64,000 nucleotides of DNA from Parcubacteria group bacterium GW2011_GWC1_36_108 (GCA_000991245.1 LBRD01000008.1:1686-65685); one strand, 5' to 3'; counted from the stretch's first letter, positions 3,541 to 38,428 are shown. Numbers and translations are program-made. The notes: generated from the letters alone by a model not told the origin.

Positions 3541-6500
3541 TTATTTTCTAATTGTTGTTGTGCCGGTTTCTCTGACTTCAACTTGTCCGAAATGATAAAG
3601 TTGCCCAATTTCATTGGCGGAAAGGGCGCGGTTGTAGATGCGGACATCGTCGATTTTACCATTAAATGTTCGATCTCCTGCAACATTATTTCCAATTGTC
3701 ATTGCTGTAGAACCTGAGCCAACTACCCCAGTCTTGGCTGCGCTAGCAACAGAAACTCCATCCAGATAAATTGAAACATTCGCTCCATCATACACGCAAT
3801 CAACATGATGCCAGCTATTGTATTTTCCAGAAAGCGGACTAGTTGTGCTTCCAACAGCTGTCACGCCAATATCACATTCAAGATTATTACCAACAAACAA
3901 AAAATTATATGAGCTGCCATTTCCTTTTTCAATAATACGACCAAAGCTAGTTCCTATTCCACTTGTTCTTGGATTTATCCAAGCGCTCAAAGTAAGTTGC
4001 GACATACCATCCAAATTATCTTTATCTGGAACTGTTACTACATTAGTCGCCACGCTAAAATCTGTTCCCTGTCCCAACTTCCCAATCGCTTTGGTTGCAC
4101 CGGAAATTGTGCCGTTATTATTATTTCCAGAAGTGTCTTTGGCAGTTGTGCCGGAAATATCTTTGCCGTCAAAGGTCCAATGCCCGACGAGACCAGCGTC
4201 AAGATTAGGCGATGAAATTTGAGATTGCTGCACAACTTCAGAAAATTCATCAGCGCCGATGTCCCAATCTCCAGCGCGACCTTGCCCGTCAATATCCTCG
4301 CCAAAATGCAAATACGAATCAGCTTGTAAATTTAAACCTGTTTTTCTAGCTACAGTATCAGAAACTGAAAGATGGAAATCCTTATTGGCAGCATCAACAA
4401 AAGCTACTGTGGTTGAATTTTTTGAGTTAGCGCCAGGAGCATCAGCAGCGAGGTCGGAGATGTTGTAATCAGACCCAGCTAAAAATGTACCCTTATACCC
4501 ATCCGTTGAACCTTGCACAATATTATTTTTTGCCACAATAGAGGATCCGGCTAAATCATAAATTCCAGCATTTGTTCCCCCATAAACAGTGTTATTGTAA
4601 GCATACAATGTTTTACCTGCACCATCATAATATCGACAAATTCCTGCACTTCCTCCATAAACAATATTATTATAAACATAAGCAGACTTGGGAGTCGTAC
4701 TTTGCCCATCAATTCTAATACCATAACTTGCCCCATAAGAAGATTTGATAATTGAATTTGAAATTTTTACAGCATTAGGCCCGCTTGAAACATACACGCC
4801 ATCATTACCTATATTAAATTGCAAGCCATCAGCCACAAGATACGATGAATTCAACTGGAAAGAACCGTTCACATCTATTCTAAATTTAGTATCGTCCCAT
4901 TTTCCCTGATGTCTTTGGTTTGTATTTGATTCTGTTGTTGTGCTGACTGGGGTATAAATCTTGATATAATTCGCAGGACTTGTTGTATATGCTGATATTA
5001 TTAAATTTGTATTATTCACACTACCATCGTTATAACAAGGTAGGTTTAATTGATAATTTCCTGTTACTAAATTTGAAGTGTTTAGATAATTCACGCCAGC
5101 CGCATAATTAATGCCATTTCCAATGGCGTAATTAATTAAATTGAAGGTGTGTGCAATTGAATTAACAGTTTGCCCAGTGACATTGGTGGGAGTTGCGCCT
5201 GTTGCGGTGATGAGTTTCCACTGCGATGTCGAAATTTTTTCTGAAATATACGCAACTGATGTTGTGTTGTATGTAACTTTATCACCCACTCCCATGTTCG
5301 TCGCAGTCTGCGCCTCGGAAAAAGTCGCAATGCCCGATGCGATAGTCACCGTTGGTGTGCCGGTTTTATGATCGGTAGTATTTTGCCCGACGGAATAATA
5401 AATTGCGGTTGCGGCTTCATCAGCGCCGATATCCCATATTGTACTTGAAGACGATGGGCGTGTTTGTCCATCGATATCATTGGTGAATGCAAGATTAATA
5501 TCCGCTGATAAGTCAGCGCCGGAATTTTTCGCAGCAGTGTCACTAGTGCTTAAGTGGAAATCTTTATTGGCAGGATCAGCAAAAGCGACGGTGGTGGAAT
5601 TTTTAGAATTGGCACCAGGTGCATCGGCGACAAGATCGGAAATATTATAGTTTGAAGATGGGTGAAAATTAGAACTAGTAAAACCATCGATACAATTTTG
5701 AGCAATATTATTCTTTAAAATAGTGTCCATGTACCCATTAGTATAATATCCGACAATTGCATCTTTGACCGTATTATTGTAAACAACAGCACGCAAAACA
5801 TCGCCACCTGCATTTCCACCAATACCTTTTTTAAAGCCGTAAATGATATTATTCCAAACTTTCAAATTAAAATTTCCGGCAGTCAAATTATATTGGATTC
5901 CAAATATATTTGTTCCACCGCTTCCAGCATACTGAAGTATATTGTTTGAAACATAAGAATTTTTATCCATGTCAATTCCAATTTGATCATAGCCAGATGT
6001 AGATGAGTTTTTTATTTGCAAACCATCAACATGTACGAATTGGTTGTTGATGTTAACATTATATGCACCCACACTTGAAACATTTAGGTTGTATTTTCCA
6101 TCATCCCATTTCCCCTGATGTCTTTGGCTTGCATTTGCTTCGGTTGTCGTGCTTATTGGAGTATAAATTCTGATATAGTTTGCTGGCGCAGTAGTATATC
6201 CTGAAACTGTCACTGCGGTAGTATCCGCAGCACTGTCGTAATAACAAGGAAAATTGAGCTGATAATTTCCAGTGACCAAACCGGTGGTATTCAAATGATT
6301 TACATCAACTGCACCTGTAACTGCAGCTGAAAGAGAAGTGTACTCGTGTTTTATTGAAACCACTGTTGAAGTCGTGATGTCTGCAGGAACTGCACCAGTT
6401 TTTGTAACTAAATTCCAAACTGAAGTGGAGGTTTTTGATGCAATATATGCAATGTCAGTTGTGTTATATGTCACCCTATCCCCAACTCCAATATTTCCAG

Positions 6501-9500
6501 TCTGAGCTGCTGAAAAAGTTGCAACTCCACTTGTAATTGTAATAGTTGGTGTGCCAATTTTAAGGTCAGCAACTGATTGCCCGACAGAATAATAGATTGG
6601 GGCTGCAGCTTCGTCGGCACCAATATCCCATATTGTGCTTGAAGATGATGGACGGGTTTGATTGTCGATGTCAGTCGTGAACAAATATGACGAATCTGAT
6701 GACAAATCTACACCAAAATTGCGTGCAGCAGTGTCGGTAGGAGAAAGATGAAAGTCTTTATTAGCAGCATCTGCAAAAGCGACGGTAGTGGAATTTTTGG
6801 AATTAGCTCCTGGAGCATCAGCAGCGAGATCTGAAATATTATAATCAGAAGTAACATTAAATGTTCCCAAAAAACCATCGCCACAATTTTGAGTAATGTT
6901 GTTTTTTAATACAGCTTGACCAATAGTAGAATGTCGAAATCCAACACTTGCTATCAAACGCAATGTATTATTGTATGCATATGAATTAACACCAGACCAA
7001 CTGTCCAGATTCATACCATTATTAACGTTATTGATTATATTATTAGAAATATATGCTCCTCCTGCAGTTGAGCCATTTGCTGAAATACCTGTGCCATTGT
7101 TAGATGGGAACTCGTCATGGATATAATTACTATCAATGGTAATATATTTTATTCCTGGAAAATACAAAGCGGATGAGGCAAACCCTGGATTTCCAAAATC
7201 AGTAATCTCCAAACCGACAAGTTTTACATATGGAATATTTAAAGCAATCGCATTTCCATTGGTTGAAGGATTAATAAGATAATTAACTCCCGTCGCTTTC
7301 CCTTGATGCCTTTGACTCACATTAACTTCAGTAGTTGTGTTATTTGGGGTATATATTTTTATATAATTTGCAGGACCAGTCGTATATCCATCAACCGTCA
7401 CTACTGTTGTGTCTGCGCCAGAATCATAATAGCAAGGGAAATTAAGTTGATAATTTCCCGCTACCAAATCTGCAGTATTTAAGTGAGTAGCATCAACAGC
7501 ACCAGCTTCTGCAGCGGAAAGTGAGGCGTAGGCGTGAGCGATTGAAGTTACATCTGCATCAGTGACAGCGGTCGGAGCAGCGCCTATTGCGCTTTGACAA
7601 CCCCAGACTGTGGTTGAGGTTTTGTTTGTAATATAGCAAGCTCCACCAGTGTATGTTACCAAATCTCCAACGCCCATATTTGTTGCAGTTTGCGCGACTG
7701 AGAAAGTTGCAGTTCTGGCGGTTGCATCAACTGTAACAGTGCCCGCTCCAGTTTCATGTGAGGTTGTGTTTTGTCCGACGGAATAGAAAATTGCGGTTGC
7801 GGCTTCGTCAGCTCCAATATCCCAAGCATTTATAGTTACATTTCGAGTTTGACCATCTATGTCAGTGTTGAAGGTAAAATTAGAATCCGCTGATAAGTCG
7901 CTACCAGAGTTCTTCGCTGATGTGTCACTAGGACTTAAGTGAAAATCTTTATTAACAGCGTCGGCGAAGGTAACGGTTTGATTTATTTTTGCATTAGCGC
8001 CTAGTGCTGATGCATCTTTAGAAAGATTTTTATTTGAAAGACTTGAATAATTAATCGCTGCGCTTCCGTTTGTACAATAATCATATGAACCATTATTATA
8101 TGACAAATTATTAATAGCAACAATGTCATAATAAGATGACTCGCTAATGCCACAATTACTATTGCCATACAAAGTATTATTATAAACAAATGCGCTATTA
8201 TCAAAATAATTACCAATACCTATACCTTTAGACCAACCATACACAATATTATTGTAAATATAAACTTGCGAACTCGATAAAACATTATTTTCTACTATTA
8301 TGCCACTTTCACTACTAGCACCACCAGTATATTTAATAATATTATTTGAAATATCGACCCCTTTATTAGTACCTCCTACAGAAATACCATCAAACCAAGA
8401 ATTATTACCTGTTTGATCAAGTTGTAATCCAGAAATGTATACGTAATTTATATTTGCCAATATTAAATCCATGCTACCACTACGCAAAACATATCTCCCA
8501 TCATCCCATTTCCCTGAATGTCTTTGCGAATTATTCGCTTCAGTTGTAGTGTTGTTTGGTGTATAAATTTTAATATTATTTGATGGCGAAGTTATGTACC
8601 CAGAAACAGTTACCGTAGTTGTATCCGCACCAGAATCATAATAACAAGGAAAATTAAGCTGATAATTTCCAGCAACCAAATCTGTAGTATTTAAATGGGT
8701 GGCATCAACAGCGCCAGCTTCGGCAGCTGAAAGTGAAGAGTACGCGTGTGTGATTGAAACTACAGTTGAATCGGTTATATTAGCAGGAATTCCTCCTGTA
8801 GCGGTTACTAAATTCCAAACAGAAGTAGAAGTTTTTGAGGAGATATATGCAACATCGGTTGTGTTATATGTGACTTTGTCGCCCACTCCCATATTTGTGG
8901 CAGTTTGAGCCACAGAAAAAGTTGCAACTCCAGATGCAATAGTCACGGTTGGCGAACCAGTTTTATGATCATTTGTGTTTTGTCCGACAGAATAATAGAT
9001 TGCAGTGGCAGCCTGATCCGCACCAATGTCGTAGAGACGTCCATTTATGGCGTCTCGCCCCTGTCCATCTATATCAGTCGTGACCGGAAGATTAGCATCC
9101 GCACTCAAATCCGCGCCAGCATTTTTGGCAGCAGTGTCATTTGGAGAAAGGTGGAAGTCTTTATTGGCAGCGTCGGCGAAGGACACAATCGTCTCAATTT
9201 GATCTTGCGCACCGCCTGTATTTGAAGAATCATCAGAAATATTATAGTTAGAAGCAGAATCAAAACTACTAGCGTACGCACTACCTCCTGTGTTTTGCAC
9301 AATGCAATTTTTAATAAGCGGACTATATCCTTCAGTATATATTCCATTTTCAGAGCCGCCAGAACCATAAACGGTATTATTATAAAATACGTTTTGGACA
9401 CTTCCTCCGAATCTTAATGCAACAACCCTGCTTGCTGAGGAACCGTAAAAAATAGAATTCTTTACGCTAGAACCATCTGTACCATATAACTGAATAGCGT

Positions 9501-12495
9501 ATCCAGTTCCCGTGTTTTTAGAAATACAAGAATCAAACTCAACATAATCATAATCAGGACCAAAAACAATAGTAGTCCAAGCAGTACTTGACGATGTAAC
9601 TTGCAACCCCATTATTTTTGTATAACTTTGCTGTATCGTAAGCGTGTTCAAAGATCCGCCAGAAAGAGCATATCTGTCGTCATCCCACTTCCCGTTATGC
9701 CTTTGTGAAAAATTGGCTTCGTTAGTCGTGTTGTTCGGTGTATAAATCTTAATAAAATTGCTTGCACCAGTGGTATATCCCGTAACTGTCACGGCTGTCG
9801 TGTCTGCAGCAGAATCATAATAACAAGGGAAATTTAATTGATAATTTCCAGTGACTAAATCCGTTGTGTTTAGATGATTAGCATCAACTGCACCTGTGAC
9901 TGCAGCGGAAAGAGAGGTGTACTCGTGTTTTATTGAAACGACGGTTTGGGCGGCGGCTCGATCAGTTGGAACGCCACCACGAGGATTGATAAGGTTCCAA
10001 ACACTGGTTGATGTTTTAGATGAAATGTAGGCAATATTTCCAACAAATTTTGCTGCACCACCAGCTTCTGCGACATACGTTTTTGTAATATCAAGATTTG
10101 TAGCATCAGAAACGTTAGTGATTTGATAAATTCCATTATAATTTGTCGTGCCAGAAATGGTGATGTAATCATATTGAGAAAAACCATGAGCGGCACTGGT
10201 TGTTAGTCTTGTTGTTCCACCACCCTGATCTGCAAAAGTCGTGATATCAATTTGACCATAAGTCACCCGATCGCCAACTCCAATATTCCCAGTCTGCGCT
10301 GCTGAAAAAGTTGCAGCTCCACTTGCAATTGTGACAGTTGGAGTGCCGGTTTTTAAATCAGAAGCAGATTGCCCGACAGAATAAAAAATCCCTGGTGGAT
10401 TTGAAAAACTCCAACCAGTGTTGCCGGAAACATTAGCAGAATTTGCACCCGCATACCAAGCCGCACCACCGGTGGCAGCGATATCTTGCAGTGACAAATA
10501 GTTACCAGCCACAATTCCGTTTGTTTTTTTGAGAGTTGCTGAAGTGCCAGGAGTTGAAGAATTTATTGTAATGAGATTGCCTGAAGTTCCAGTAGCAGTG
10601 AAAAGACCGTTGATTGTTTGGGTTGTGCCGGAAGTAAATTTAACTGTCTTTGGCGCATTAATAGTAAGATTATTGAAAGTGTTGGAACCAGCAATAGTTG
10701 TCGCGCAGTCGCCAGTATTTAAAGTTACATTATTATAAACCAAGCCACCAAATTCAACAGTTTGCGTGGCGCTAGTAAAGTCTTCTATTTTCAATGTTGA
10801 TGTTTCGGCGTTTAAATTTAAATTTGTTATTGTTTGCAAGTTCCAAGGACTTGATGATTGATATGCATTTCCCATTGTCCATATGCCACTTCCCATTAAG
10901 ATTGATCTTGTATTAGAATTGCTTGATGAAAAATTGTTACATGAAACATTAAAATTATTAGCATCGAATGTTCCATTATTCAAAATCAGTGTCCTGCCAT
11001 TTCCTGCCGAAGAATCAAAGTTATCCTGCAATGTTAATATTCCGCCAATCATTGAAATATTAACATTAGCAACACCTGTCATAAAAACTTTTCCAGCACT
11101 TGTCAGTGAATATGATCCCCTGCCTTCGAAGGTTAAGTGCTGCGATTGACCAAATGTCATACCAGAAATCAATGTCAACGAACCATACAATGTATTGGGA
11201 GTTGACGTTAACGAAAAAGTCGGCGAATTTGTCGCTCCCGTCCAAGAAATACTTTTGCCCAAGCGCGGCATATCTGCCACTACTGTTTTACCAGTCGCTG
11301 CAAAAGAATTTGCATCAAAAACCACATCGTCTTGAGGTAGCGGCACGCGACCTGCTCCACCCCCGCCATTGGTAGCCAAAAACCAATTGCCGATTGTTGA
11401 CCAATTGTCCGAAGCACTAGCTCCGTGTTTCCAATATTGCGGTGCACCAGTGGTAAACGTAATTCCAGAATTTCCCCCAGCATCTCCGCTTCCGCCAGAA
11501 ATTGCGGACAAATCCCAACTTCCAGCACCAGCACCAATAATATCACGAAAATCTGCATTGATAACAGAAACATTAGCAGCTGTGATTGTGCGAGCACTGC
11601 CGAGAGTATTTGAGGTAACAAAAAGTCTATTGATTGCAGAATTACCTGCGAAAGTTATCATGTTTGATACAGTAATGTTTCCGGGTAATGACAATGAATT
11701 AGTTTTTGCTGTTGCCGTAGCCCAAGTAAAATTATGACAAGATATATTACCACCATAAAGCAAAAAAGCTGGATCGGTAAATTCTAGATCATAATAAGTT
11801 TGAGAAGATGTAGCAAGAAATTTACTAGTGCTTGTACTTTTAATGAGAGACGTTCCAGCATCCAAAGTACCAATAAACCCCCAAGTATAATCGCCAACAC
11901 TTGTCCTTGATAAAGTTAGCGTGCTGCTGCCAAGATTTATAGAACCAGATGCACCAGTAATTGTATCACTGACTGATATATTATAATTATTCGTATTAAA
12001 TGTTGCGACAGAATATGAGGAATTAACTTGTATTTTATATAGTGAAACATCAGCACCCAGTGTTGTTGTTCCTCCTGCCACATCAAGTGTCAACCCTGCC
12101 ATATCTTGTCCTGCAAAATCTGGCACAACAACTCCCCTTGTTCGCAAGCTTCCATACCCACCAACTACTGTCGTCATACCGCTTACAAGTTTAAAGATAT
12201 TTCCAGCTAAATCTATGCGCGAACTATTATTCCAAGTCAGTGTTCCAACATAATTAGTCATATCAAATGTGTTGCCTAAACACGCAGAATAATCACAGGT
12301 TAAATTTCCGCTTGTTGCCGTTGCTACAATATCATCAACAAGAGTCGGCACCGCGCCCTCCACCCAAGTTCCAGCCGCACTCCAATTTCCCCCAGCATCA
12401 GAAATTGTGCGGGTGGCAGCTTGAGCTTGGGACGTGAAAAAAACCGCGGAGAGCAGAAAGGTTAATACAAAAATTGTAGGCTTGAGAAAATTCAT
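3541..12495 (-). CDS. Giant secreted surface protein (2984 aa) built from repeated beta-sandwich plus parallel beta-helix modules, with a C-terminal LamG/ConA-like lectin domain
   Basis: N-terminal signal peptide MNFLKPTIFVLTFLLSAVFFTSQAQA|AT. About 7 tandem ~400-aa modules each contain (A)TAIYYSVGQ…HLNTTDLVAGNYQLNFPCYYDSG…IKIYTPNNTT…SQRHQGKWDD, then NNxIxxN beta-helix rungs, then a KDFHLSPSDTSAKNSGSDLSAD…TDIDGQTR linker. The C-terminus carries the LamG signatures LVGHWTFDG…DDVRIYNRALSANEIGQLY. Confidence 0.85.
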   Translation of the reverse strand: MNFLKPTIFVLTFLLSAVFFTSQAQAATRTISDAGGNWSAAGTWVEGAVPTLVDDIVATATSGNLTCDYSACLGNTFDMTNYVGTLTWNNSSRIDLAGNIFKLVSGMTTVVGGYGSLRTRGVVVPDFAGQDMAGLTLDVAGGTTTLGADVSLYKIQVNSSYSVATFNTNNYNISVSDTITGASGSINLGSSTLTLSRTSVGDYTWGFIGTLDAGTSLIKSTSTSKFLATSSQTYYDLEFTDPAFLLYGGNISCHNFTWATATAKTNSLSLPGNITVSNMITFAGNSAINRLFVTSNTLGSARTITAANVSVINADFRDIIGAGAGSWDLSAISGGSGDAGGNSGITFTTGAPQYWKHGASASDNWSTIGNWFLATNGGGGAGRVPLPQDDVVFDANSFAATGKTVVADMPRLGKSISWTGATNSPTFSLTSTPNTLYGSLTLISGMTFGQSQHLTFEGRGSYSLTSAGKVFMTGVANVNISMIGGILTLQDNFDSSAGNGRTLILNNGTFDANNFNVSCNNFSSSNSNTRSILMGSGIWTMGNAYQSSSPWNLQTITNLNLNAETSTLKIEDFTSATQTVEFGGLVYNNVTLNTGDCATTIAGSNTFNNLTINAPKTVKFTSGTTQTINGLFTATGTSGNLITINSSTPGTSATLKKTNGIVAGNYLSLQDIAATGGAAWYAGANSANVSGNTGWSFSNPPGIFYSVGQSASDLKTGTPTVTIASGAATFSAAQTGNIGVGDRVTYGQIDITTFADQGGGTTRLTTSAAHGFSQYDYITISGTTNYNGIYQITNVSDATNLDITKTYVAEAGGAAKFVGNIAYISSKTSTSVWNLINPRGGVPTDRAAAQTVVSIKHEYTSLSAAVTGAVDANHLNTTDLVTGNYQLNFPCYYDSAADTTAVTVTGYTTGASNFIKIYTPNNTTNEANFSQRHNGKWDDDRYALSGGSLNTLTIQQSYTKIMGLQVTSSSTAWTTIVFGPDYDYVEFDSCISKNTGTGYAIQLYGTDGSSVKNSIFYGSSASRVVALRFGGSVQNVFYNNTVYGSGGSENGIYTEGYSPLIKNCIVQNTGGSAYASSFDSASNYNISDDSSNTGGAQDQIETIVSFADAANKDFHLSPNDTAAKNAGADLSADANLPVTTDIDGQGRDAINGRLYDIGADQAATAIYYSVGQNTNDHKTGSPTVTIASGVATFSVAQTATNMGVGDKVTYNTTDVAYISSKTSTSVWNLVTATGGIPANITDSTVVSITHAYSSLSAAEAGAVDATHLNTTDLVAGNYQLNFPCYYDSGADTTTVTVSGYITSPSNNIKIYTPNNTTTEANNSQRHSGKWDDGRYVLRSGSMDLILANINYVYISGLQLDQTGNNSWFDGISVGGTNKGVDISNNIIKYTGGASSESGIIVENNVLSSSQVYIYNNIVYGWSKGIGIGNYFDNSAFVYNNTLYGNSNCGISESSYYDIVAINNLSYNNGSYDYCTNGSAAINYSSLSNKNLSKDASALGANAKINQTVTFADAVNKDFHLSPSDTSAKNSGSDLSADSNFTFNTDIDGQTRNVTINAWDIGADEAATAIFYSVGQNTTSHETGAGTVTVDATARTATFSVAQTATNMGVGDLVTYTGGACYITNKTSTTVWGCQSAIGAAPTAVTDADVTSIAHAYASLSAAEAGAVDATHLNTADLVAGNYQLNFPCYYDSGADTTVVTVDGYTTGPANYIKIYTPNNTTTEVNVSQRHQGKATGVNYLINPSTNGNAIALNIPYVKLVGLEITDFGNPGFASSALYFPGIKYITIDSNYIHDEFPSNNGTGISANGSTAGGAYISNNIINNVNNGMNLDSWSGVNSYAYNNTLRLIASVGFRHSTIGQAVLKNNITQNCGDGFLGTFNVTSDYNISDLAADAPGANSKNSTTVAFADAANKDFHLSPTDTAARNFGVDLSSDSSYLFTTDIDNQTRPSSSSTIWDIGADEAAAPIYYSVGQSVADLKIGTPTITITSGVATFSAAQTGNIGVGDRVTYNTTDIAYIASKTSTSVWNLVTKTGAVPADITTSTVVSIKHEYTSLSAAVTGAVDVNHLNTTGLVTGNYQLNFPCYYDSAADTTAVTVSGYTTAPANYIRIYTPISTTTEANASQRHQGKWDDGKYNLNVSSVGAYNVNINNQFVHVDGLQIKNSSTSGYDQIGIDMDKNSYVSNNILQYAGSGGTNIFGIQYNLTAGNFNLKVWNNIIYGFKKGIGGNAGGDVLRAVVYNNTVKDAIVGYYTNGYMDTILKNNIAQNCIDGFTSSNFHPSSNYNISDLVADAPGANSKNSTTVAFADPANKDFHLSTSDTAAKNSGADLSADINLAFTNDIDGQTRPSSSSTIWDIGADEAATAIYYSVGQNTTDHKTGTPTVTIASGIATFSEAQTATNMGVGDKVTYNTTSVAYISEKISTSQWKLITATGATPTNVTGQTVNSIAHTFNLINYAIGNGINYAAGVNYLNTSNLVTGNYQLNLPCYNDGSVNNTNLIISAYTTSPANYIKIYTPVSTTTESNTNQRHQGKWDDTKFRIDVNGSFQLNSSYLVADGLQFNIGNDGVYVSSGPNAVKISNSIIKSSYGASYGIRIDGQSTTPKSAYVYNNIVYGGSAGICRYYDGAGKTLYAYNNTVYGGTNAGIYDLAGSSIVAKNNIVQGSTDGYKGTFLAGSDYNISDLAADAPGANSKNSTTVAFVDAANKDFHLSVSDTVARKTGLNLQADSYLHFGEDIDGQGRAGDWDIGADEFSEVVQQSQISSPNLDAGLVGHWTFDGKDISGTTAKDTSGNNNNGTISGATKAIGKLGQGTDFSVATNVVTVPDKDNLDGMSQLTLSAWINPRTSGIGTSFGRIIEKGNGSSYNFLFVGNNLECDIGVTAVGSTTSPLSGKYNSWHHVDCVYDGANVSIYLDGVSVASAAKTGVVGSGSTAMTIGNNVAGDRTFNGKIDDVRIYNRALSANEIGQLYHFGQVEVRETGTTTIRK

Positions 12496-13655: not shown

Positions 13656-14219
13656 TTAGGGTTTCCCATTTCCATTTCCATTTCTAAAGGAGATGCGTTT
13701 GCGGTAGAGATTTTCGGTGAAGCCGCCTTCGGTTTCATGTTTTCTTTTCAATGATTCGGCCAATTTGGCAAGCAAAAATCCATCCATCTGGCAAAATGTC
13801 AGCAGCATGTTGGCAGCCTGCTCAGCTGACTCCGCTGAAATGCTTGGGGTGTTTAGGGTGTTTAGGGACACCCAAACAACCCTAAACTCCCTAAATTTTT
13901 TGATGCGCGGATCATTCTTTTCCCAAATCAACAAATTTCTTTGACGCAGAAAATCTTGATAATCTTTGGTCAATTCTTCATTTGATCCATGCGCAACACC
14001 AACAAGAAAAATGTAACTCTTGAGCGATTCGGCAGTGTACCCTTCTGCTACATTCTGTGAATTGCTCCGCGCAGCTTGCACCATCTGATCATGAGTGCGA
14101 CTTTTTTTATCAATAAATTTATCACAAAATTGCACCGTCAAATCCTGAATAACCTTGCCCAGCATATACGCCACCAGATATTCATATCCCGGACGACTTT
14201 CGTTTTTTTGATTTTCCAT
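13656..14219 (-). CDS. Four-helix-bundle protein paralog (TIGR02436/Avd-like core plus ~90-aa C-terminal extension); start probably at MENQKNESRPGYEY (the ORF is open to 14309)
   Basis: QMVQAARSNSQNVAEGY…IFLVGVAHGSNEELTKDYQDFLRQRNL matches the Q..RAA.S…N.AEG…FL..A.GS..EL signature. It is paralogous to the 20552-21115 product (DFLRQR…KNDxR, EQAAN.LLT.C, KxKHxxEGGxxExLxRKR). Confidence 0.65.
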   Translation of the reverse strand: MENQKNESRPGYEYLVAYMLGKVIQDLTVQFCDKFIDKKSRTHDQMVQAARSNSQNVAEGYTAESLKSYIFLVGVAHGSNEELTKDYQDFLRQRNLLIWEKNDPRIKKFREFRVVWVSLNTLNTPSISAESAEQAANMLLTFCQMDGFLLAKLAESLKRKHETEGGFTENLYRKRISFRNGNGNGKP

Positions 14220-14240
14220 TTTGTTTGCATTTAAATTGAA

Positions 14241-14310
14241 CCCCCTAACACCCCTAACCGCCCACCAGTGTGAACACCCAAAAATCCCCAACCGCCCAAA
14301 ATACCCCAAG
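14241..14310. repeat. C-rich array (reverse complement of the GGGGTGGTTGGGG units) 5' of the 217-aa four-helix-bundle gene; inverted partner of 13536-13655
   Basis: ccccctaacacccctaaccgcccaccagtgtgaacacccaaaaatccccaaccgcccaaaatacccc. ccccaaccgccc is the reverse complement of gggcggttgggg. Confidence 0.7.
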
Positions 14311-14323
14311 AATTAGGATGACC

Positions 14324-17300
14324 CTACCTCCGCATTTCAACCTTGCCGGTGTTGTACAGGTTGGAAATTTCACTGGCGGAAAGAGCGCGGTTGTAGATAC
14401 GGACATCGTCAAGAGAACCATTGAAATAGTTAGAACTTCCAGATCTTCCAATGTCCAAACGAGTTTTTATTGCTGCACCACCACTCGTATCTGTTGTAGA
14501 TATTGCCTGTTGTTGTCCATCAACGAAAAGAAGAGAGCCATCGACATCATTGTTTTCAACAACAAAAATCATTTGATGCCAATTATTGTCATAAATATTT
14601 ACAGGGTTAGTTGGAGAGAAATATCTCCATTCTGTATTACCTAAATACAATAATGGTCCATTTGACGCTCCAGTATATTCTACATGTAGTGATGGCGGCG
14701 GCGGAGCAGTATTTGTAGACCATCGAAGCAGTGGGGCATTGCTTTGACTGCCATCGTATTTTACCCAAGCAGAAACAGTTGTAGTGTCAGACAATATGCT
14801 GGAGTTTGTGCCACAGTCTACATAGTCACTCGTTCCATTAAACTTCATACCCTGTCTTATTTTCCCTGGTGTCACTGTGGCGCCGGAGATGGTGCCGTTG
14901 TTGCCGAGGCCAGATCGGTCAAACGCTGTCGTGCCGGAAACGTCGGGACCGTCGAAGGACCAGAGGCCGACAAGGCCGTTAGTGCTTTTTGAGTTCTGCG
15001 AAGTCTGCATTGTTGTTTGCCCTTGGTTGTATAGTTGCCCGATTTCGCTGGCGGAAAGCGGGCGATTGTAAAGATGAACGTCATCCAAAAGTCCATTATA
15101 CTTGTTTCTAGCAGAATCACCCGCCGCATCATACCCATAACCAACATATAAAGGATAACCAGCTGTGATTAAATTTCCACTAATGGCTACAGTATCCTTT
15201 AAAATTCCATTAAAATATACTCTTGCATTTGTGCCATCCCAATTAACAGACAAGAAATACCATTCATTTAGTGGATAATTCCAACTTGTCGTGTAATTCG
15301 TTGCATTGTGTGTGATTTTGATTCTTGTTTTTCCTTGCCACAAGTCTGGCATCTGAGATATTGACCAAGTTCTATCGCCAACTCCACCCAACCAAATATT
15401 TGTTGTTGCCTTAGAAATCATTGCACCTTTTGGATCTGTGGTTGTTTTTACCCAGGCATTAAAAGAATATCCGGTTACAAGATTAATTGAAGTATTATCA
15501 GGTATATTAATTTTATCTCCACTTACTCCATTAAAACTAAACCCTTGACCACGCCTTCCCGGAATCACTGTCGCACCAGAAATTGTGCCGTTATTATTGT
15601 TACCGGAAACATCTTTGGTCACAGTACCAGAAGTGTCGTCGCCGTCGAATGTCCAGTGCCCAATAAGTCCAGCATCAAGATTTGGCGATGATTGCTGGGT
15701 CTGCATGACTGTGTCAGAAAATTGATCAGCGCCGATGTCCCAAGGATTCACACGCACCTGCCCATCAATATCAGTGTCGAATGCAAAAAATGAGTCGCGC
15801 TGCAAATCCAAACCTGCGCCTTTGGCGGAAGTGTCCGCTAATTTAAGATGAAAATCTTTATTGGCCGCGTCAACGAAAGCAAACGTCTGACTAATTTTAT
15901 TATTTGCACCCTGCCCAATTGCATCTGTACTGTCTGTTGCATTATAATCAGTGCCAGAAGCGAAGGTGCCAAAATATGTATATAAATTGCCACCAGCATT
16001 TTTCAACAAATTATTTTTAGCAATCGCCGTCCCTGCTGACACACGAATTCCGTTTGTAGAATCAATAATTGTATTATTGTAAATATAAGCAGCTGCATCA
16101 GAATCAAGAATAGCAACGCCTGTTCCTTCTAAACCAAGACAATCATAAATTATATTGTTCCAAATATAAAAAACACTTCCTGCTCCAGCATAGTTAACGC
16201 TAACTCCGTTATCGTTATAACTTCCAGTAGCAGTACTTTTGATAATGTTATTGGAAATTGAAATATTTGCCTGTGCAAGACTGGCTCCCATATTAACAAC
16301 GCTGTAATCCCCTGAATACATTTGCAAACCATCTATTTTTATATTTTCCTCATAATTTAGAATGGAACTACTTGATGCATTTTCAATTCGATACTTTCCA
16401 TCATCCCATCTCCCCTGATGACGCTGGCTTGCGTTAGCCTCGGTTGCCGTGCTTGTTGGAGTATAAATTTTAATATAATTCGACAATCCCGTTGTGTAAC
16501 CATTAATAGTGACTCCTGCCGTATCCGCACCGGAGTCATAATAACAAGGGAAATTGAGTTGATAATTTCCTGCTACCAAATCTGTAGTATTTAAGTGAGT
16601 AGCATCAACAGCTCCAGCTTCGGCAGCGGAAAGTGAAGCGTAAGCGTGGGCGATTGAAGTTACATCGGCATTTGTTGCAGCGGTGGGGGCGGTGCCGGTT
16701 GCGGATTGGCAACCCCAGACTGTGGTTGAGGTTTTGTTTGTAATATAGCAAGCTCCATCTGTGTATGTTATCAAATCTCCCACTCCCATATTAGTGGCAG
16801 TTTGCGCCACTGAAAAAGTTGCGGTCCTTGCGGTGGCATCAACTGTGACAGTACCTGCACCTGTTTCATGAGAATTGGTGTTTTGTCCGACGGAATAATA
16901 GATTGCTATTGCTGCTTCGTCGGCACCGATATCGACAATACCCGCTCCAGTTGGTCGCGTCTGTCCATCTATATCAGTCGTAATCGGCAAATTAGCATCC
17001 GCGCTTAAATCTACACCTGCATTTTTGGCAGCCGAATCACTAGGGGAAAGATGGTAGTCTTTGTTGGCAGCGTCGGAGAAAGCGACAGTGGTGGAATTTT
17101 TGTTGTTTGTACCCTGCTGAATATCATTTGCCAGATCTGAAATATTATTTGAAGAAGCAGCATTAAAAGTTCCAGAACCTGCATATCCATCAGCAAAATT
17201 TTGAACAATATTATTCTTTGCAATAACCGTTCCAGATATTATACCAATACCACTACCAGCTCCAAATCCAACCAAGGTATTATTAAATATATTTACAGTT

Positions 17301-20300
17301 GCAAAGGAATAATTATCATAAATTCCATAAGAAGCTTGCCCATATATTAATGAATTTATGATATTTATCACTGAGGTATTATGATAACTTATTTGAATAC
17401 CAGTATTGCTTCCAGTTGTAACTGGTCCACCACGTATAATGCAATCTTTTATTGTTGTAACTCCACTTCCAGCATTTAGAGAATAGCTAGAGGAACCTCC
17501 ATTTCCTCCTGGAGCATATGCATATGTTTGAATGCCCTCAATTTTATTAAACTGAGTCCCTATACTCATTATTACGCCATAATCAGGAAGTTTTAACTTG
17601 TATTTCCCATCGTCCCATTTCCCCTGATGCCTTTGCGAATTATTCGCTTCAGTGGAAGCATTATTTGGTGTATAAATTTTAATAAAATTATTTGCCCCGG
17701 TAGTGTAGCCAGAAACAACAACTGCAGTCGTGTCTGCAGCGCTATCATAATAGCAAGGGAAATTAAGTTGATAATTTCCTGTCACTAAATCCGTAGTATT
17801 CAAATGATTAGCATCAATTGCTCCAGTGACTGCAGCAGAAAGAGAAGTGTATTCATGTTTAATTGAAACGACGGTTGAAGTTGTGATGTCAGCAGGAACT
17901 GCTCCAGTTTTTGTCACAAGATTCCAAACTGAAGTTGATGTTTTTCAGCAACTGATTGCCCGACAGAATAATAGATTGCGGTTGCTGCTTCGTCGGCGCC
18001 GATATCCCATATTGTGCTTGAAGATGATGGACGGGTTTGATTGTCGATGTCAGTGTTGAATGCAAAATTAGCATCCGCTGATAAGTCGCTACCAGAATTC
18101 TTCGCTGATGTGTCGCTAGGACTCAAGTGGAAATCCTTATTGGCTACGTCGACAAAAGATACTGTCTGATTTATCTTTGAATTGACTGGGTTGGTCAAAT
18201 TATTGGCAGTTGCGTCAGAAGAAATATTATTAACGGAACTTTTTCCATCATTCAGGTAAGCTGATACAACATTATAATCAATTACATTTCCAAATGCGAT
18301 ATTATTACCAAAACCAGCCAAAGATTTATACATATTTGTACCACCAAAATACGCTCCAGTCCCACACCCATACATTGTATTATTATAATAAACATTATTA
18401 CTATAATTACCCTGTTGATCAATGCTTAATCCAGCCACATCAAAATTATAAATAATATTATTAAAAGATTTAAAATTATATCCAAAACGAACAGCTATAC
18501 CACTGTGACCAGTAGTACTTGATTCTCGTTTTAAAATGGAATTTTTAAGTGTTACATAATCAGCATAAGAATTACCAAAAGCATTGGTTGATAACGTGCC
18601 AGCCACAGAAATTTGTAACCCTTCAATTACAGTGTAGTCCTGGTCATTATTGATATATAAAGCATTTGTGCCAGTTGCAGGCACGAGTTTGTATTTCCCA
18701 TCATCCCATTTTCCAGAATGCCTTTGACTCTGATTTACTTCGGTTAAAATATTATTCGGCGTATAAATTTTTATAAAATTACTTGCCCCAGTTGTGTATC
18801 CAGAAACTGTAACCGCAGTTGTATCCGCGCCAGAATCATAGTAGCAAGGGAAATTCAATTGATAATTTCCAGCCACCAAATCCGTTGTATTCAAATGGGT
18901 AGCATCAACTGCGCCAGCTTCGGCAGCTGAAAGTGAAGAGTAGGCGTGGGCGATTGAAGTTACATCGGCATTTGTGACTGCAGTAGGGGCTCCGCCAGTG
19001 GCGGATTGACAACCCCAGACTGTGGTTGAAGTTTTTGATAAAATATAGCAAGCTCCGCCAGTGTAAGTTATCAAATCGCCCACTCCCATATTTGTTGCAG
19101 TTTGCGCGACTGAGAAAGTTGCGGTTCTAGCAATGGCATCTACCGTAACAGTGCCGCTGCCTGTTTCATGAGAATTGGTATTTTGTCCGACACTGTAATA
19201 GATGGCTGTTGCCGCTTCGTCAGCGCCAATATCCCATATTACACTTGAAGACGATGGACGCGTTTGCCCGTCGATGTCAGTATTAAATGCAAAATTAGAA
19301 TCCGCTGATAAGTCGCTACCGGAATTCTTCGCTGATGTGTCGCTAGGGCTTAAGTGAAAATCTTTATTGGCAGCGTCGGCGAAGGCGACAGTGGTGGAAT
19401 TTTTGGAATTCGCACCAGGTGCATCGGCGGCGAGATCGGAAATGTTATAATCTGACCCAGTAAAATTACCAGAGTACACATGAAATCCATCAATATTATT
19501 TTGCGAAATAGAATTTTTTACAACGAAAGTACCGTAATTAGCCCAATAACCGTTGGTTGTATTATATATAGTATTATTATTTGCATACAATATACCGCCA
19601 ATACTATTATTAAATCTCAATCCTATACCACTTGAAGCGTCATATAATATATTATTATAAACCTTATTAATTCCGGAGGAAGCTATATTAACAAGCGTCG
19701 CATTATTACCTACAGTACTCTTTACAATTGAATTGCCAAGTTCCAAATTATTCCCAGCTGCACCAAAAAATATAGCGCCATCTCCGCCAGTTATAAGTGT
19801 TTTTTGTATCTGCAATCCTTGAATTTTTGAATACGGGATATTTACATACAATGCATTAGCCGCATTTGCAACCAATCTATACTTCCCATCATCCCACTTT
19901 CCCTGATGTCTTTGGCTTACATTGGTTTCAGTAGTCGTGCTTGTTGGAGTATATATTTTGATATAATTTGAAACACCTGTCGTATATCCAGAAACTGTCA
20001 CCGCCGTTGTATCCGCTGCACTGTCATAATAACAAGGGAAATTGAGCTGATAATTTCCTGTTACTAAATCTGTAGTGTTGAGATGATTGGCGTCAACCGC
20101 ACCAGTAACTGCAGCAGACAAACTTGTGTATTCATGTTTAATTGAAACGACGGTTGAAGTTGTGATGTCAGCAGGAACTGCTCCAGTTTTTGTCACAAGA
20201 TTCCAAACTGAAGTTGATGTTTTTCCACTTGCAATTGTGACAGTCGGCGTGCCAGTTTTTAAATCAGCAGCAGATTGCCCAATTGAATAGTAGATTGCAG

Positions 20301-20493
20301 TGGCTGCGTGTGCCTGTGAGGAAAACGCGAAAAAACCGATAGCGAAAAATGCCGCCGCCAAGAAAAATCGAACACCCGTAGAGACGCGATTAATCGCGTC
20401 TCTACCATGCGCGTCTCTATCACGATTTTTTGAAAAATATTTTGTTATTTTTACCAATCGCTCATGAGCGAAAGGTTTTGATTTTAGATTCAT
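14324..20493 (-). pseudogene. Giant surface-protein paralog split into two overlapping ORFs (896-aa N-terminal part 17914-20604 and 1197-aa C-terminal part 14324-17917) by a frameshifting intragenic deletion; either a pseudogene or an assembly collapse in repeats
   Basis: The N-terminal ORF has a signal peptide (…GVRFFLAAAFFAIGFFAFSSQAHA|ATAIYYS) and the same module types as 3541-12495. It stops at …AIYYSVGQSVAEKHQLQFGIL*. The next ORF restarts 4 nt earlier, mid-module (MTKTGAVPADITTSTVV…), and carries three C-terminal LamG-like domains. At the junction about 140 nt of an otherwise conserved module are missing. Confidence 0.6.
20378..20424. repeat. REP palindrome (identical 28-mer to 3505-3532) plus a partial extra arm, lying in frame in the 5' region of the giant paralog
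   Basis: gtagagacgcgattaatcgcgtctctac-catgcgcgtctctatcacg, translated in the ORF as …NRDRDAHGRDAINRVSTG…. Confidence 0.75.
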
Positions 20494-20551
20494 TTTTTCA
20501 TGCTTAAGTTTCTTAAGACACTTAAGGTTCTTACTAAGATTCTTATGTTTC

Positions 20552-21115
20552 TTAATATCCCCTGTATTCCCGTCTTTTTCTGTGCAACTCCTCTGAAAGA
20601 CCACCTTCTTTTTGATGCTTCAATTTCAACGCCTCAACTTGGCGATGGAGAAGCAATGTTGCTTGATGGCAAAGCGTCAGCAGAAAATTTGCAGCTTCTT
20701 CACTTTGCTCTGGTAGTTCAATTGTTTTCAGGAGCTCTTCGGTTTCATACTCCTTGTTTAAGACGCTTAAGTTACTTAGGTTTCTTACGAGTGTCGCGCT
20801 TCGCGCTCGCAGTGCGAGTACTCGCGAGTCATTTTTGTCCCATTTAGAAAGTTTTCTCTGACGCAAAAAATCTTCCAGATCACCAGTCAATTCTTCCAAG
20901 GACCCCTTGGCGATGCCCGTGAGGTTGATGGCCACTTTTAGAGAAACATCCATGTCATCCGAGCCTTCCACGATGTTTTGTTTTCCACTTCTGGCTGCAC
21001 CATCCATTTGCTCTTTCAGTTTCCAACTTTTTATCCATTTTTCAGCAAACTCAACCTCTCGGTCATAGATGATGACCGAAAACCAATAGGTATAAAGTTT
21101 TTTGTATGGTTGCAT
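20552..21115 (-). CDS. Four-helix-bundle protein paralog (Avd-like/TIGR02436 core plus C-terminal extension)
   Basis: QMDGAARSGKQNIVEG…GIAKGSLEELTGDLEDFLRQRKL, and a C-terminus matching the 13656-14219 product. Confidence 0.6.
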   Translation of the reverse strand: MQPYKKLYTYWFSVIIYDREVEFAEKWIKSWKLKEQMDGAARSGKQNIVEGSDDMDVSLKVAINLTGIAKGSLEELTGDLEDFLRQRKLSKWDKNDSRVLALRARSATLVRNLSNLSVLNKEYETEELLKTIELPEQSEEAANFLLTLCHQATLLLHRQVEALKLKHQKEGGLSEELHRKRREYRGY

Positions 21116-21155: not shown

Positions 21156-24100
21156 TCACAATTTTTCCTCCATAATTATCCAGTCAAAAGAAACGTCTTC
21201 AGTGACAAGATTCTTTACACTAACAGTAAATCCTTCTCCGAATTTTACTTCGGTGACGGCGATTCCTTGATCAAGGGCTACTTTTGGTGTGATGAAAACT
21301 TTTGAAGAAATATTTGCAGCTTTTGTTTTGACAAAGAAAGTTTTTCCATCGCTCTTTGTGTCATCATCTTTGCCGTCGCCATCCAAATCTTTCTTAATTA
21401 AAGTTATTGATGCATCACCGATTGTGCGAGCTTCTGGGTCTAAGACAGATACGATTAATTTGCCCGTTTCCAAACTTTTGACAGTTAATTTTCCAGCAAT
21501 TGCAATGTCGCCAATATCCTCACCCTGCCCAACACCAAGCAGCATTTTTATCAGTGCAATATCTTGAGTGTTTAAATCAATTTGAGCGATGTTTAATTCA
21601 GAATTTGCCTTGATCTGAAGCTCGGTCATTTGATCTTGTAATGTTTCAGCTAAACTCGTTAGGGAGTTTAGGGAATTTAAGATATTTAAATTGTCATTCT
21701 GAACTTGTTTCAGAATCTGATCAGTGTTTGCCAACTGCGCATCAAGACTTGTTTTTGCAACTGCAACTAATTGATTCACCTGATCTTGAATGTTCATACT
21801 AGCAATGTTTAACGTCACAGCTTCTTCAACTTTTTCCACAGTCAAACTTTGATTTCTGCGTGAAATCAAAACTTGAATTGTTCCTTTTTCTCCAGCAAAT
21901 GATTGAATCGCAACACCAACAGTTGATTCGCCCGCATTAGCTTTTCGCAAATATCCGGCAGACTCTGCAGCTGTCAAATTGTCTCCGATTTGAATTACGC
22001 CATTTTCAGTGGAAACTTTTCCAGGAACCTGTCCGAGCATACCGATTATTTTGTAATTTGGATCATTATCGCGCTCGGTTCCATTTCCATTTCCAACAAT
22101 AGACGGATTTGAAGAAACAATACCCATCACATTATTATCGCCAGAACGTGTGCAGCGTTCAACTGAATTTGCGTTAGTTACATCAACACAAACAACTTCT
22201 CCAGACTGAAGATCAATATCTTTAGTATAAAAATATTCCGCATAATCAGCGCCGTTTGTTAGATAACCGTTTTTAGAATTAATTTTAGAAGAAGCGTGCT
22301 GGACATCCAAAATGTATCCCGGAGTTGTTGTGCCGATACCAACACCAAGCGCATTCATTCCACCTGCACCATCAGAAGTTCCATATAATGTTAACATCGC
22401 GTTTCCATCAAGACTTGCTGTGTAGCTATTAACCACGCCAACAGTTGAAGCAGTTGTTACTGCCATATCAATCCAGCTTATTATTCCAGAATCTGCAGAA
22501 AATTCCTGCGTTCCGATAGAAAGACTTCCGATGCTTGTCACGCCACTTGTATCGATTGAGAATTGACTCGTGCCTGCAATTCCATTGCCTGCAAAAATTT
22601 TGAATTTGTTTGAATCAGTCACATCAACTCCCATTGAGAATTGTTGAGCGCCCGCGCCAAGTCGGAAATAGTTATTTGTGTTATCCCAATAAAGGTTGGC
22701 GTTATTTTGGTCATAAATTCCACTTGCGCCTGCAAAAACTAACGAACCTTGAGTGAATTGAGTGGTTGAACCTGTGCCACCATGAGTCACATCGATTGCG
22801 GTTCCGTTCCAAACTCCAGTTGTTATTGTGCCAAGCGTTGTGATTGAACTTGCGCCAGTCCATGTTCCACCAGCAATTGCAGCCAACTCTGCATTATATC
22901 CTTGGACATTTGTTCCGATTGCAAGTCCAAGATTTGTCCTAGCTGTTGCCGCATCAGTCGCGCCAGTTCCACCATTAGCAACAGCAACCGTACCGGAAAG
23001 ATAGGCAGTTGCATCCCAGCTCCAAACTCCGGCAGTGTTTTTCAGTAAACCGTTTGTTGAAGCTGTTGGTAAAGTATATGTTATATCAGCTGCCTGATCT
23101 CCACCTTGCAAATATGAATAGTATGTTGGAGTTGTGCCTGTTTCAATCAAACCAAGTTTTGCTCCCATTTTTACTGCTAAATTAGAAGTGTTACCGTCAC
23201 CACTGGAAGTTCCATAAATCGTCAGCATTACATTTCCATCAAGCATCGCTCCATAACTTTCAACCGTTCCGTTTGTTGCAGCTGACGTTACAGGCATATC
23301 AGTCCATGAAATTGCTCCTGAATTTTCAGCAAATGATTGCGCGCCAAGTTGAAGACTTGCAATGTTCGTCACTCCATTTGTATCTATCGTAAACTGACCA
23401 GTTCCCGCAATTCCACTTCCAGTTGCAATCTTAAATTTGCTTGAATCAGTCGCATCAACACCCATTGAAAATTGTTGAGCGCCCGCGCCAAGTCGGAAAT
23501 AGTTATTTGTATTATCCCAATAAAGGTTGGCATTATTTTGATCATAAATTCCAGAAGCTCCCGCAAAAATTAATGAGCCTTGAGTAAATTGAGTCAATGT
23601 TCCAGAACCACCACTAGTAACCGGTAAAATTCCAGTAACATTTGTTGAAGCTAAATTGATTGCATTAGCAGTTATTTCCTGACCACTTAATGACAAATAA
23701 TTTTCTCCTGCTATGGTTGCAGAGCTGTGAATTGCTGTACTACTCCAGGTCGGAACTCCAGCGACCAAGGTTAAAACTTGCCCATCCGAACCACGAGTAA
23801 TTTTTCCAAGTGTTGAGGTAGTATCCGCATACAACATATCGCCAATAGAATAAGATGCATAACCAGTTCCACCATATTGCGCACCAAGAGCAGTAGAAAG
23901 TGTCAATGAATTGAATGCCACATCTGATGTTGTGTTGATTGTTTGTGGAAGTGAAATCGTAACTGCACCATTTGCAGCTGAAACAGCAACTTGATTAGCA
24001 GTTCCAGCCAAACTTGTCACTCCAGAGTTAGCAATTGAAATTGAACCAGCTCCATTAGTGATAGAAATTCCAGTGCTGGCGGTTAATGTTGCCAAATCAT

Positions 24101-36121: not shown

Positions 36122-38428
<2,307 letters not shown>

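What the first reader, a model, noticed from the sequence alone, without database searches (positions are those of the whole stretch)
17830..20230. Giant paralog disrupted by two repeat-mediated deletions that begin at the identical breakpoint
Two ~100-nt stretches are almost identical: 17841-17936 and 20111-20226 (…gaaacgacggttgaagttgtgatgtcagcaggaactgctccagtttttgtcacaagattccaaactgaagttgatgtttttc). Each is followed by sequence that skips part of the canonical module, compared with intact copies such as 6420-6600.

At 20226 about 90 nt (30 codons) are missing, and the frame is preserved. At 17936 about 140 nt are missing, so the frame shifts and the gene splits into overlapping ORFs 17914..20604 and 14324..17917.

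Identical breakpoints in two places suggest recombination or slippage between modules, i.e. a possible cassette-shuffling or on/off mechanism. The alternative is a collapsed assembly in repeats.
Basis: seen in the sequence. Interest (0 to 1): 0.6.

Follow-up and report, generated by a model that had tools for sequence, protein, structure and literature searches.

The report
Assembly artefact splitting a surface-protein gene
The two "deletions" that split this giant repeat-rich surface-protein gene are almost certainly mistakes made by the short-read assembler at a 119-base exact repeat, because independent assemblies of the same groundwater bacterium show one intact 2166-residue gene.

Summary
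Two 100-nt stretches (17847-17946 and 20126-20225) are identical, and just upstream of each (gene on the minus strand) the window lacks part of the ~400-aa module. 90 nt are missing in frame at 20224/20225. 130 nt are missing at 17945/17946, which shifts the frame and gives ORFs 17914..20604 and 14324..17917.

The biological reading fails. The window is NCBI contig UR95_C0008 of the CPR bacterium GW2011_GWC1_36_108. About 59 kb of it could be compared with independent assemblies of the same Rifle groundwater population. There are no substitutions, and these two gaps are the only differences. Those assemblies, including MEGAHIT runs named k127, carry one uninterrupted 2166-aa gene.

In the intact gene, modules 1 and 3 share a 119-nt exact repeat, the only exact repeat of 60 nt or more in the repaired window. 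Both junctions keep 99 nt of it, which is k-1 for k=100, the maximum k of IDBA-UD published for Rifle assemblies from the same lab. They fall on the two exit nodes of a k=100 de Bruijn graph. Two contigs of a sister GW2011 bin have different gaps (30 and 38 nt) with the same right-hand end. Orthologues in related strains keep the "deleted" segment.

Low interest.

The parts
17914..20604 (-). N-terminal fragment of the surface-protein gene: longest ORF 896 aa, deposited as KKP89413.1. It holds a signal-peptide-like N-terminus, module 1 (with the 90-nt gap), module 2 and the start of module 3. It ends at a TGA created by the frameshift.
14324..17917 (-). C-terminal fragment of the same gene: 1197 aa, deposited as KKP89412.1 'Cell wall/surface repeat protein'. 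It holds the rest of module 3, module 4 and two Laminin_G_3 stretches.
20224..20225 (-). Junction 1, in module 1. 90 nt present in the intact allele are missing here (gene strand AGTTGCAAC...ATATTGCATC, encoding VATFSAAQTGNIGVGDRVTYNTTDIAYIAS). The frame is kept. Placement is ambiguous by 1 nt (an A).
17945..17946 (-). Junction 2, in module 3. 130 nt present in the intact allele are missing here (gene strand ATTTAAAAACAGC...ATATTGCATC). The result is a frameshift and a stop at 17914-17916. Placement is ambiguous by 1 nt (an A).
20126..20224 (-). Copy 1 of the retained 99 nt (the last 99 nt of the 119-nt exact repeat of the intact gene). This is the exit node of a k=100 de Bruijn graph.
17847..17945 (-). 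Copy 2 of the retained 99 nt of the 119-nt exact repeat. This is the second exit node of the k=100 graph.
3541..12495 (-). Paralogue: 2984 aa, with five copies of the module-start motif plus Laminin_G_3. Its canonical modules show what is missing. It is a 2984-aa ORF in the independent assembly as well.

Best explanation
The true gene is one uninterrupted 6501-nt ORF of 2166 aa. It has a signal-peptide-like N-terminus and four ~400-aa modules. Each module has a conserved ~120-aa N-terminal part and a divergent region that is probably a right-handed beta-helix, with a choice-of-anchor-Q-like match in module 3. Two LamG stretches follow at the C-terminus. The organism is a Moranbacteria-like CPR bacterium from Rifle groundwater.

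Modules 1 and 3 share a 119-nt exact repeat. The repeat is longer than the assembler's largest k (IDBA-UD, maxk 100, inferred for this assembly) and shorter than the 150-nt reads. In a k=100 de Bruijn graph, the contig leaving the repeat starts with its last 99 nt (k-1). In the deposited GW2011_GWC1_36_108 contig, the contig start 'AAAAACATC...' was butted directly onto an upstream contig end that had stopped 90 nt (module 1) or 130 nt (module 3) short. That left two apparent deletions with an identical downstream breakpoint. One of them shifts the frame, so the annotation shows two ORFs.

Shown here:
- The intact allele exists in independent assemblies.
- The window is otherwise base-for-base identical to them.
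- The junctions coincide with the k=100 exit nodes.
- Sister assemblies carry different gaps with the same right-hand end.

Inferred:
- That this particular assembly used IDBA-UD with maxk 100.
- Which step made the bad join: scaffolding, local assembly, or the Velvet-based repair step.
- That no read supports the junctions.
For: 1. **Intact allele.** Independent assemblies carry one ORF of 2166 aa between the same flanking genes: ERZ909590 (contig name k127), ERZ28564412, ERZ909595 and ERZ28564383. Two further contigs (JGI 3300024999 and ERZ28564383 scaffold_390) cover module 1 intact. The 2166-aa product is recorded on 5 ENA and 3 JGI contigs. The 896-aa and 1197-aa fragments are each recorded on a single contig, the NCBI one.
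2. **Identity elsewhere.** Window positions 2964-31115, 32893-54104 and 49310-64000 match independent assemblies with no substitutions. The only differences are the 90-nt and 130-nt gaps.
3. **The repeat.** The exact repeat in the intact gene is 119 nt, and 99 nt of it are retained after each junction.
4. **Graph test.** In the repaired 64,220-nt window, this is the only exact repeat of 60 nt or more. A k=100 graph has four branching nodes, and the two exit nodes (43867 and 46276 on the repaired minus strand) are the two right-hand breakpoints. At k=127 and k=141 there are none.
5. **Same end, different gaps.** Two contigs of another GW2011 bin (GCA_000990595.1) have other gaps with the same right-hand end. 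L004 lacks 30 nt in module 3, which creates a TAA. L021 lacks 38 nt in module 1. In both the 99-nt count is unambiguous.
6. **Other errors in that bin.** The same bin also has 31-37-nt gaps elsewhere that the window and other assemblies do not share.
7. **Published methods.** Rifle metagenomes from this lab were assembled with IDBA-UD at maxk 100 from 150-bp reads. [quoted passage not shown] Local assembly errors are noted as prominent in IDBA-UD, with scaffold-end overlaps of n or n-1 (PMC7111523).
8. **Orthologues.** Two-, three- and four-module orthologues all keep the segment.
Against: - No reads were available, so absence of read support for the two junctions is inferred, not shown.
- The upstream (left) ends of the four gaps are not all predicted by a simple single-genome de Bruijn model. 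Only the module 3 left end coincides with the end of a maximal 34-nt repeat.
- The other 31-37-nt gaps in the sister bin are not next to exact repeats, so more than one error mode is involved.
- In the window's own two junctions the breakpoint is ambiguous by 1 nt, so 98 or 99 nt are retained.
- The methods paper for the GW2011 genomes themselves (Brown et al. 2015) could not be read here. maxk 100 is taken from sister papers of the same lab and site.
Confidence: 0.93

Rival explanations
1. The deletions are real alleles in the GWC1 population. Breakage or slippage at a hotspot just upstream of AAAAACATC removes part of the module's N-terminal domain and switches the giant surface protein off (frameshift) or shortens it. 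This would be a contingency or phase-variation locus.
For: The junctions are present in deposited sequences from two bins. Four different gaps end at one position. The gene family is clearly recombinogenic over evolutionary time: there is a 119-nt exact tract in modules that are 65% identical overall, and there are 2-, 3- and 4-module orthologues.
Against: - Each junction occurs in only one assembly, all from one assembly series. Every independent assembly found that spans these sites has the intact sequence.
- The shared end sits 99 nt (k-1 for k=100) from the end of the repeat.
- Microhomology at the junctions is 1 nt at most. There is no simple-sequence tract, so no reversible switch.
- There are no linked SNPs over ~59 kb.
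Confidence: 0.04
2. The two ORFs are meant to be expressed as they stand. Either they are two genes coupled through the GTGA overlap at 17914-17917, or one protein is made by a programmed -1 frameshift on G-AAA-AAC at the junction.
For: There is a 4-nt stop/start overlap. A -1 slip on the A5 run at 17941-17945 would read ...GQSVAEKTSTSVW... and rejoin the frames. This is read directly from the sequence and was not tested.
Against: - The same gene in the same population is a single in-frame ORF without any shift site, as it is in related strains.
- The supposed second gene would start in the middle of a module and would lack a signal peptide.
- The frameshift site is created by the gap itself.
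Confidence: 0.01
3. The 'deletions' are ordinary divergent module boundaries: shorter natural variants of the module's N-terminal domain that also occur in orthologues.
For: Module lengths do vary (1182-1227 nt). The gap in module 1 is in frame.
Against: - All module 1 copies in the 2-, 3- and 4-module orthologues, and all paralogue modules, keep the segment.
- The window differs from the intact allele by nothing else.
- The module 3 gap breaks the frame.
Confidence: 0.01

Closest known systems
Local assembly or scaffolding errors of IDBA-UD metagenome assemblies, as described for Rifle and CPR genomes (PMC7111523, PMC5079060)
   Same: - A short region where two contigs were wrongly joined.
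- It lies inside a protein-coding gene with internal repeats.
- One side of the join is a contig end carrying the k-1 (99-nt) tail of an exact repeat longer than maxk=100.
- Re-assembly at larger k gives a clean ORF.
   Different: - Here the error survived the published curation and entered GenBank as two proteins.
- The papers describe unsupported sequence, or Ns inserted despite overlap. They do not describe N-free abutment that mimics a deletion.
- The exact step that produced it is not identified.
Phase or antigenic variation of repeat-rich surface proteins by slipped-strand mispairing or intragenic recombination (for example Neisseria opa, Mycoplasma vlp/vsa; from general knowledge)
   Same: - A large secreted protein built of tandem modules.
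- An exact repeat lies between modules.
- Module number differs between closely related strains.
   Different: - There is no simple-sequence tract, and no repeat or microhomology flanks the gaps.
- The short alleles were not found in any independent assembly retrieved here.
- The breakpoints track assembler k rather than sequence features.
Giant beta-helix/LamG 'cell wall/surface repeat' proteins of Moranbacteria and other Patescibacteria
   Same: - The intact 2166-aa protein matches dozens of 1200-3700-aa proteins from Moranbacteria and Parcubacteria MAGs at 31-54% identity.
- These matches carry Laminin_G_3 and Beta_helix hits.
   Different: Nothing unusual was found. It is an ordinary member of this family, and the function of the family has not been tested.

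Membership tests
de Bruijn-graph mis-join at an exact repeat (assembly artefact) | An exact repeat longer than the assembler's k lies at the site | tested here: met
   The intact gene has a 119-nt exact repeat. It is the only exact repeat of 60 nt or more in the repaired window. maxk 100 is reported for Rifle assemblies.
de Bruijn-graph mis-join at an exact repeat (assembly artefact) | The junction coincides with a graph branch node (k-1 overlap) | tested here: met
   99 nt of the repeat are retained at all four junctions. The exit nodes 43867 and 46276 of the k=100 graph are the two right-hand breakpoints. The left ends are only partly explained.
de Bruijn-graph mis-join at an exact repeat (assembly artefact) | Independent assemblies or larger k give a different, self-consistent sequence | tested here: met
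   Independent assemblies, including contigs named k127, give an intact 2166-aa ORF. The sequence is otherwise 100% identical over ~59 kb.
de Bruijn-graph mis-join at an exact repeat (assembly artefact) | No read spans the junction without mismatch | not testable with these tools
   No access to reads.
Repeat-mediated deletion, slipped-strand phase variation | Direct repeats or microhomology flank the deleted segment, or there is a simple-sequence tract | tested here: not met
   Microhomology is 1 nt at most at the junctions. The AAAAAC and TTGCA repeats nearby would predict other products.
Repeat-mediated deletion, slipped-strand phase variation | Both alleles are recoverable from the population in independent data | tested here: not met
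   Each short junction is seen in only one GW2011 contig. The intact product is on 8 contigs.
Cassette-based antigenic variation (expression site plus silent cassettes) | Promoterless partial cassettes donate segments to one expressed locus | tested here: not met
   The related sequences in the window are full-length, intact paralogous genes, not silent cassettes.
Programmed -1 ribosomal frameshift | The shift site and the two-frame arrangement are conserved in orthologues | tested here: not met
   Orthologues and the same-population allele are single in-frame ORFs.
Patescibacterial beta-helix/LamG giant surface proteins | Laminin_G_3 domain(s), beta-helix-like modules, N-terminal signal sequence | tested here: met
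   - Laminin_G_3 matches at 3.5e-38, in two stretches.
- Beta_helix (PF13229) matches in the paralogue.
- The choice_anchor_Q domain matches at 26.3 bits against a cut-off of 25.
- The hydrophobic N-terminus ending AHA|A is read directly from the sequence.
- Homologues are named Moranbacteria LamG or cell-wall surface repeat proteins.

The most novel reading that the evidence does not exclude
Some of the four junctions are real, rare alleles. A fragile site just upstream of AAAAACATC, in the conserved N-terminal domain of modules 1 and 3, would repeatedly suffer one-sided deletions. That would switch off or shorten a giant attachment protein of an episymbiotic CPR bacterium. It would come on top of the apparent module gain and loss seen between strains (2, 3 or 4 modules with flanks 98.5-99.4% identical).
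Probability: 0.04. Interest if true: 0.4.

Novelty: not a real feature. Interest (0 to 1): 0.07.

Why it matters
There is little biological significance. The gene is an ordinary intact member of the giant beta-helix/LamG surface-protein family of Moranbacteria-like CPR bacteria.

The practical value is database hygiene. GenBank proteins KKP89413.1 (896 aa) and KKP89412.1 (1197 aa) are fragments of one 2166-aa protein. So are KKQ39020.1 (986 aa) and KKQ38946.1 (683 aa, partial) of the sister bin. Some of these fragments have been copied into nr and MetaClust.

The case also gives a simple diagnostic for scans of metagenome-assembled genomes. An apparent deletion whose end lies k-1 bases from the end of an exact repeat is an assembler signature, not biology.

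Tried and rejected
- **Slippage between short direct repeats.** AAAAAC (K-T codons) and TTGCA occur near both ends of the gaps. Slippage there would give other junction sequences than those observed. Rejected.
- **Homopolymer miscall.** An A6 to A5 miscall would explain the frameshift on its own. It is superseded, because the intact allele shows that 130 nt are missing, not 129 plus a miscall.
- **Left ends as graph branch points.** I asked whether the left ends of the four gaps are de Bruijn branch points at lower k. Only one fits (a 34-nt maximal repeat at the module 3 left end), and two others are off by 1 nt. Inconclusive.
- **k-1 signature in the sister bin's other gaps.** The other 31-37-nt gaps of the sister bin are not next to any exact repeat in the window. 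They are a different error mode or unexplained.
- **Genome-contig scan.** A genome-contig scan for the repeat found nothing. The metagenome-contig scan found only L021.
- **Exact look-ups.** Look-ups of the 1197-aa ORF and of P0001 in the look-up of encoding contigs found nothing.
- **Structure search.** A PDB sequence search with one module found nothing.
- **Methods paper.** I could not retrieve the Brown et al. 2015 methods.

Full report
**1. What is at the coordinates.**
All large genes in this part of the window are on the minus strand. ORFs 17914..20604 (896 aa) and 14324..17917 (1197 aa) overlap by 4 nt (GTGA). Read together they look like one protein:
- an N-terminus resembling a signal peptide (...FFAFSSQAHA|ATAIYYS);
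- tandem modules of about 400 aa, each beginning AIYYSVGQ and ending DIGADEAA;
- two Laminin_G_3 stretches at the C-terminus.

A paralogue of 2984 aa lies at 3541..12495.

The maximal identical stretch is 100 nt (17847-17946 and 20126-20225). The neighbouring 300 nt are only 65% identical.

Alignment with canonical paralogue modules shows what is missing. Module 1 lacks about 90 nt in frame. Module 3 lacks about 130 nt, which shifts the frame. Both gaps end immediately before AAAAACATCAAC on the gene strand.

**2. Where the window comes from, and what other assemblies show.**
Exact look-ups of two neighbouring small proteins returned many contigs from Rifle groundwater metagenomes. The 896-aa and 1197-aa products are GenBank KKP89413.1 and KKP89412.1. 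They sit on a 78,872-nt contig (UR95_C0008) of 'Parcubacteria group bacterium GW2011_GWC1_36_108'. Each is recorded on that one contig only.

In independent assemblies the same interval, between the same flanking genes, is a single ORF of 6501 nt and 2166 aa with no internal stop. These are ENA ERZ909590 (contig named k127), ERZ909595, and the ERZ28564412 and ERZ28564383 scaffolds. Two further contigs (JGI 3300024999 and ERZ28564383 scaffold_390) cover module 1 intact. The 2166-aa product is on 5 ENA and 3 JGI contigs.

BLAST of the window against these contigs gives three blocks at 100% identity, separated by 90 nt and 130 nt that the window lacks. The sum, 220 nt, is the difference between 6501 nt and the 6281 nt of the window interval.

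Window positions 2964-31115, 32893-54104 and 49310-64000 are covered by independent assemblies. Across them there is not one substitution, and the two gaps are the only differences.

**3. Why the two gaps share a breakpoint.**
In the intact gene, modules 1 and 3 share a 119-nt exact repeat (L012 10962-11080 and 13371-13489). Each window junction keeps the last 99 nt of it.

I rebuilt the window with the intact gene (64,220 nt) and tested it:
- The 119-mer is the only exact repeat of 60 nt or more.
- A k=100 de Bruijn graph of the repaired window has just four branching 99-mer nodes.
- The two exit nodes (43867 and 46276 on the repaired minus strand) start at the two right-hand breakpoints.
- At k=127 and k=141 there is no branching.

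Contigs leaving a repeat in such a graph begin with its last k-1 bases. The right-hand 'breakpoint' is therefore a contig start.

Two contigs of another GW2011 bin (GCA_000990595.1, US57) show the same thing with other left ends. LBTM01000023.1 (L004) lacks 30 nt in module 3, which makes a TAA. Ga0076114_127 / US57_C0027 (L021) lacks 38 nt in module 1. Both resume at the same AAAAACATC, and in both the 99-nt count is unambiguous. In the window's own two junctions the placement is ambiguous by one A.

That sister bin also carries 31-37-nt gaps elsewhere that neither the window nor the other assemblies share. These are not next to exact repeats, so those assemblies have more than one kind of local error.

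**4. Published methods agree.**
- Rifle metagenomes from this laboratory were sequenced as 150-bp pairs and assembled with IDBA-UD at --maxk 100 (PMC5079060; PMC4736985; IDBA_UD also in PMC4742961).
[quoted passage not shown] It adds that scaffold ends overlap by n or n-1, where n is the largest k. [quoted passage not shown]

I could not read the methods of the paper that released the GW2011 genomes. That this assembly used maxk 100 is an inference from sister papers.

**5. Alternatives.**
- **Real deletion alleles or an on/off switch.** Each junction is private to one contig of one assembly series. The intact allele is what every independent assembly found here recovers. Microhomology at the junctions is 1 nt at most, and the short repeats nearby (AAAAAC, TTGCA) would predict different products. 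There is no simple-sequence tract. The shared end tracks k-1. I give this 0.04.
- **Two coupled genes or a programmed -1 frameshift on G-AAA-AAC.** The site is created by the gap itself and is absent from the in-frame allele and from the orthologues. I give this 0.01.
- **Natural short module variants.** Orthologues in related strains have flanks 98.5-99.4% identical to the window. L018, L014 and L020 have three modules (L018 complete at 1832 aa). L013 has two modules (1341 aa). All keep GVATFSAAQTGNIGVGDRVTYNTTDIAYIAS in module 1, as do the paralogue modules. This is refuted.

**6. What the gene really is.**
It is a 2166-aa secreted protein with four modules. The modules keep a conserved ~360-nt N-terminal part (80-100% identical between modules 1 and 3) and a strongly diverged middle (35-50%). 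Domain evidence is as follows:
- Pfam Beta_helix matches in the paralogue, and Laminin_G_3 matches in two stretches.
- NCBIfam choice-of-anchor Q gives a weak match just above cut-off, near the end of module 3.
- No PDB sequence match was found.

Homologues of 1200-3700 aa come from Moranbacteria and Parcubacteria MAGs, and some are named LamG or cell-wall/surface repeat proteins. This is an ordinary member of a known but functionally untested family of CPR surface proteins.

The 119-nt exact tract and the differing module numbers among near-identical strains suggest real inter-module recombination over evolutionary time. That is a different matter from the two gaps under review.

**7. Verdict.**
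The favoured biological interpretation is not supported. Confidence is 0.93, and read mapping would settle it. Novelty: not a real feature. Interest is low, apart from the database correction and the k-1 diagnostic.

Noticed in passing
window 17847-17946 and 20126-20225; intact form L012 10962-11080 and 13371-13489: In the true (intact) gene, modules 1 and 3 share a 119-nt exact tract inside an N-terminal module region that is 80-100% identical. The module middles are only 35-50% identical. This pattern suggests recent gene conversion between modules, or strong constraint on the N-terminal domain with diversification of the middle.
   Followed up: partly
L013 10512-14537; L018 609-6107; L012 10512-17012 (orthologous to window 14324-20604): Strains whose flanking DNA is 98.5-99.4% identical to the window carry 2-module (1341 aa), 3-module (1832 aa) or 4-module (2166 aa) versions of this gene. 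Internal identity is only about 82-90%. The gene appears to be a hotspot of real strain-level variation.
   Followed up: partly
window 12562-12918, 13656-14309, 20552-21115 (all minus strand): Small four-helix-bundle genes lie beside the giant surface-protein genes. All three match 23S_rRNA_IVP, though the two larger only below Pfam's gathering cut-off. The two larger ones also match TIGR02436 and the TIGR04258 'suffix' domain. Some distant homologues of the giant protein carry a PF05635 hit within the same protein (P0011, P0025). The reason for this association is unknown.
   Followed up: no
L004 (LBTM01000023.1) versus window 14975-15011 and 13650-13682; L021 versus window 21777-21807 and 24737-24773: The sister GW2011 bin GCA_000990595.1 lacks four further short segments (37, 33, 31 and 37 nt) that are present in the window. 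All four positions lie in window stretches that independent assemblies match at 100%. None is next to an exact repeat, so these are probably a second kind of local assembly error.
   Followed up: partly
window about 38400-50000 (minus strand): There is a type IV pilus-like gene cluster: PilM/FtsA-like, PilO-like, two T2SSE ATPases, T2SSF, a response regulator, a prepilin peptidase and several N_methyl pilins. It lies close to three giant surface-protein genes (3541-12495, 14324-20604, 21156-29027).
   Followed up: no
L029 about 1213-1312 (corresponds to window 57387-57441): One independent scaffold (ERZ28564140 scaffold_614) has 100 Ns inserted between flanks that overlap by 55 nt. This is the 'Ns despite overlap' scaffolding error described in PMC7111523. 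The window is clean here.
   Followed up: partly
window 17914-17917: The GTGA stop/start overlap between the two ORF fragments mimics translational coupling. It is a by-product of the frameshift: the GTG is an internal valine codon (NLVTKTG) of the intact protein.
   Followed up: yes
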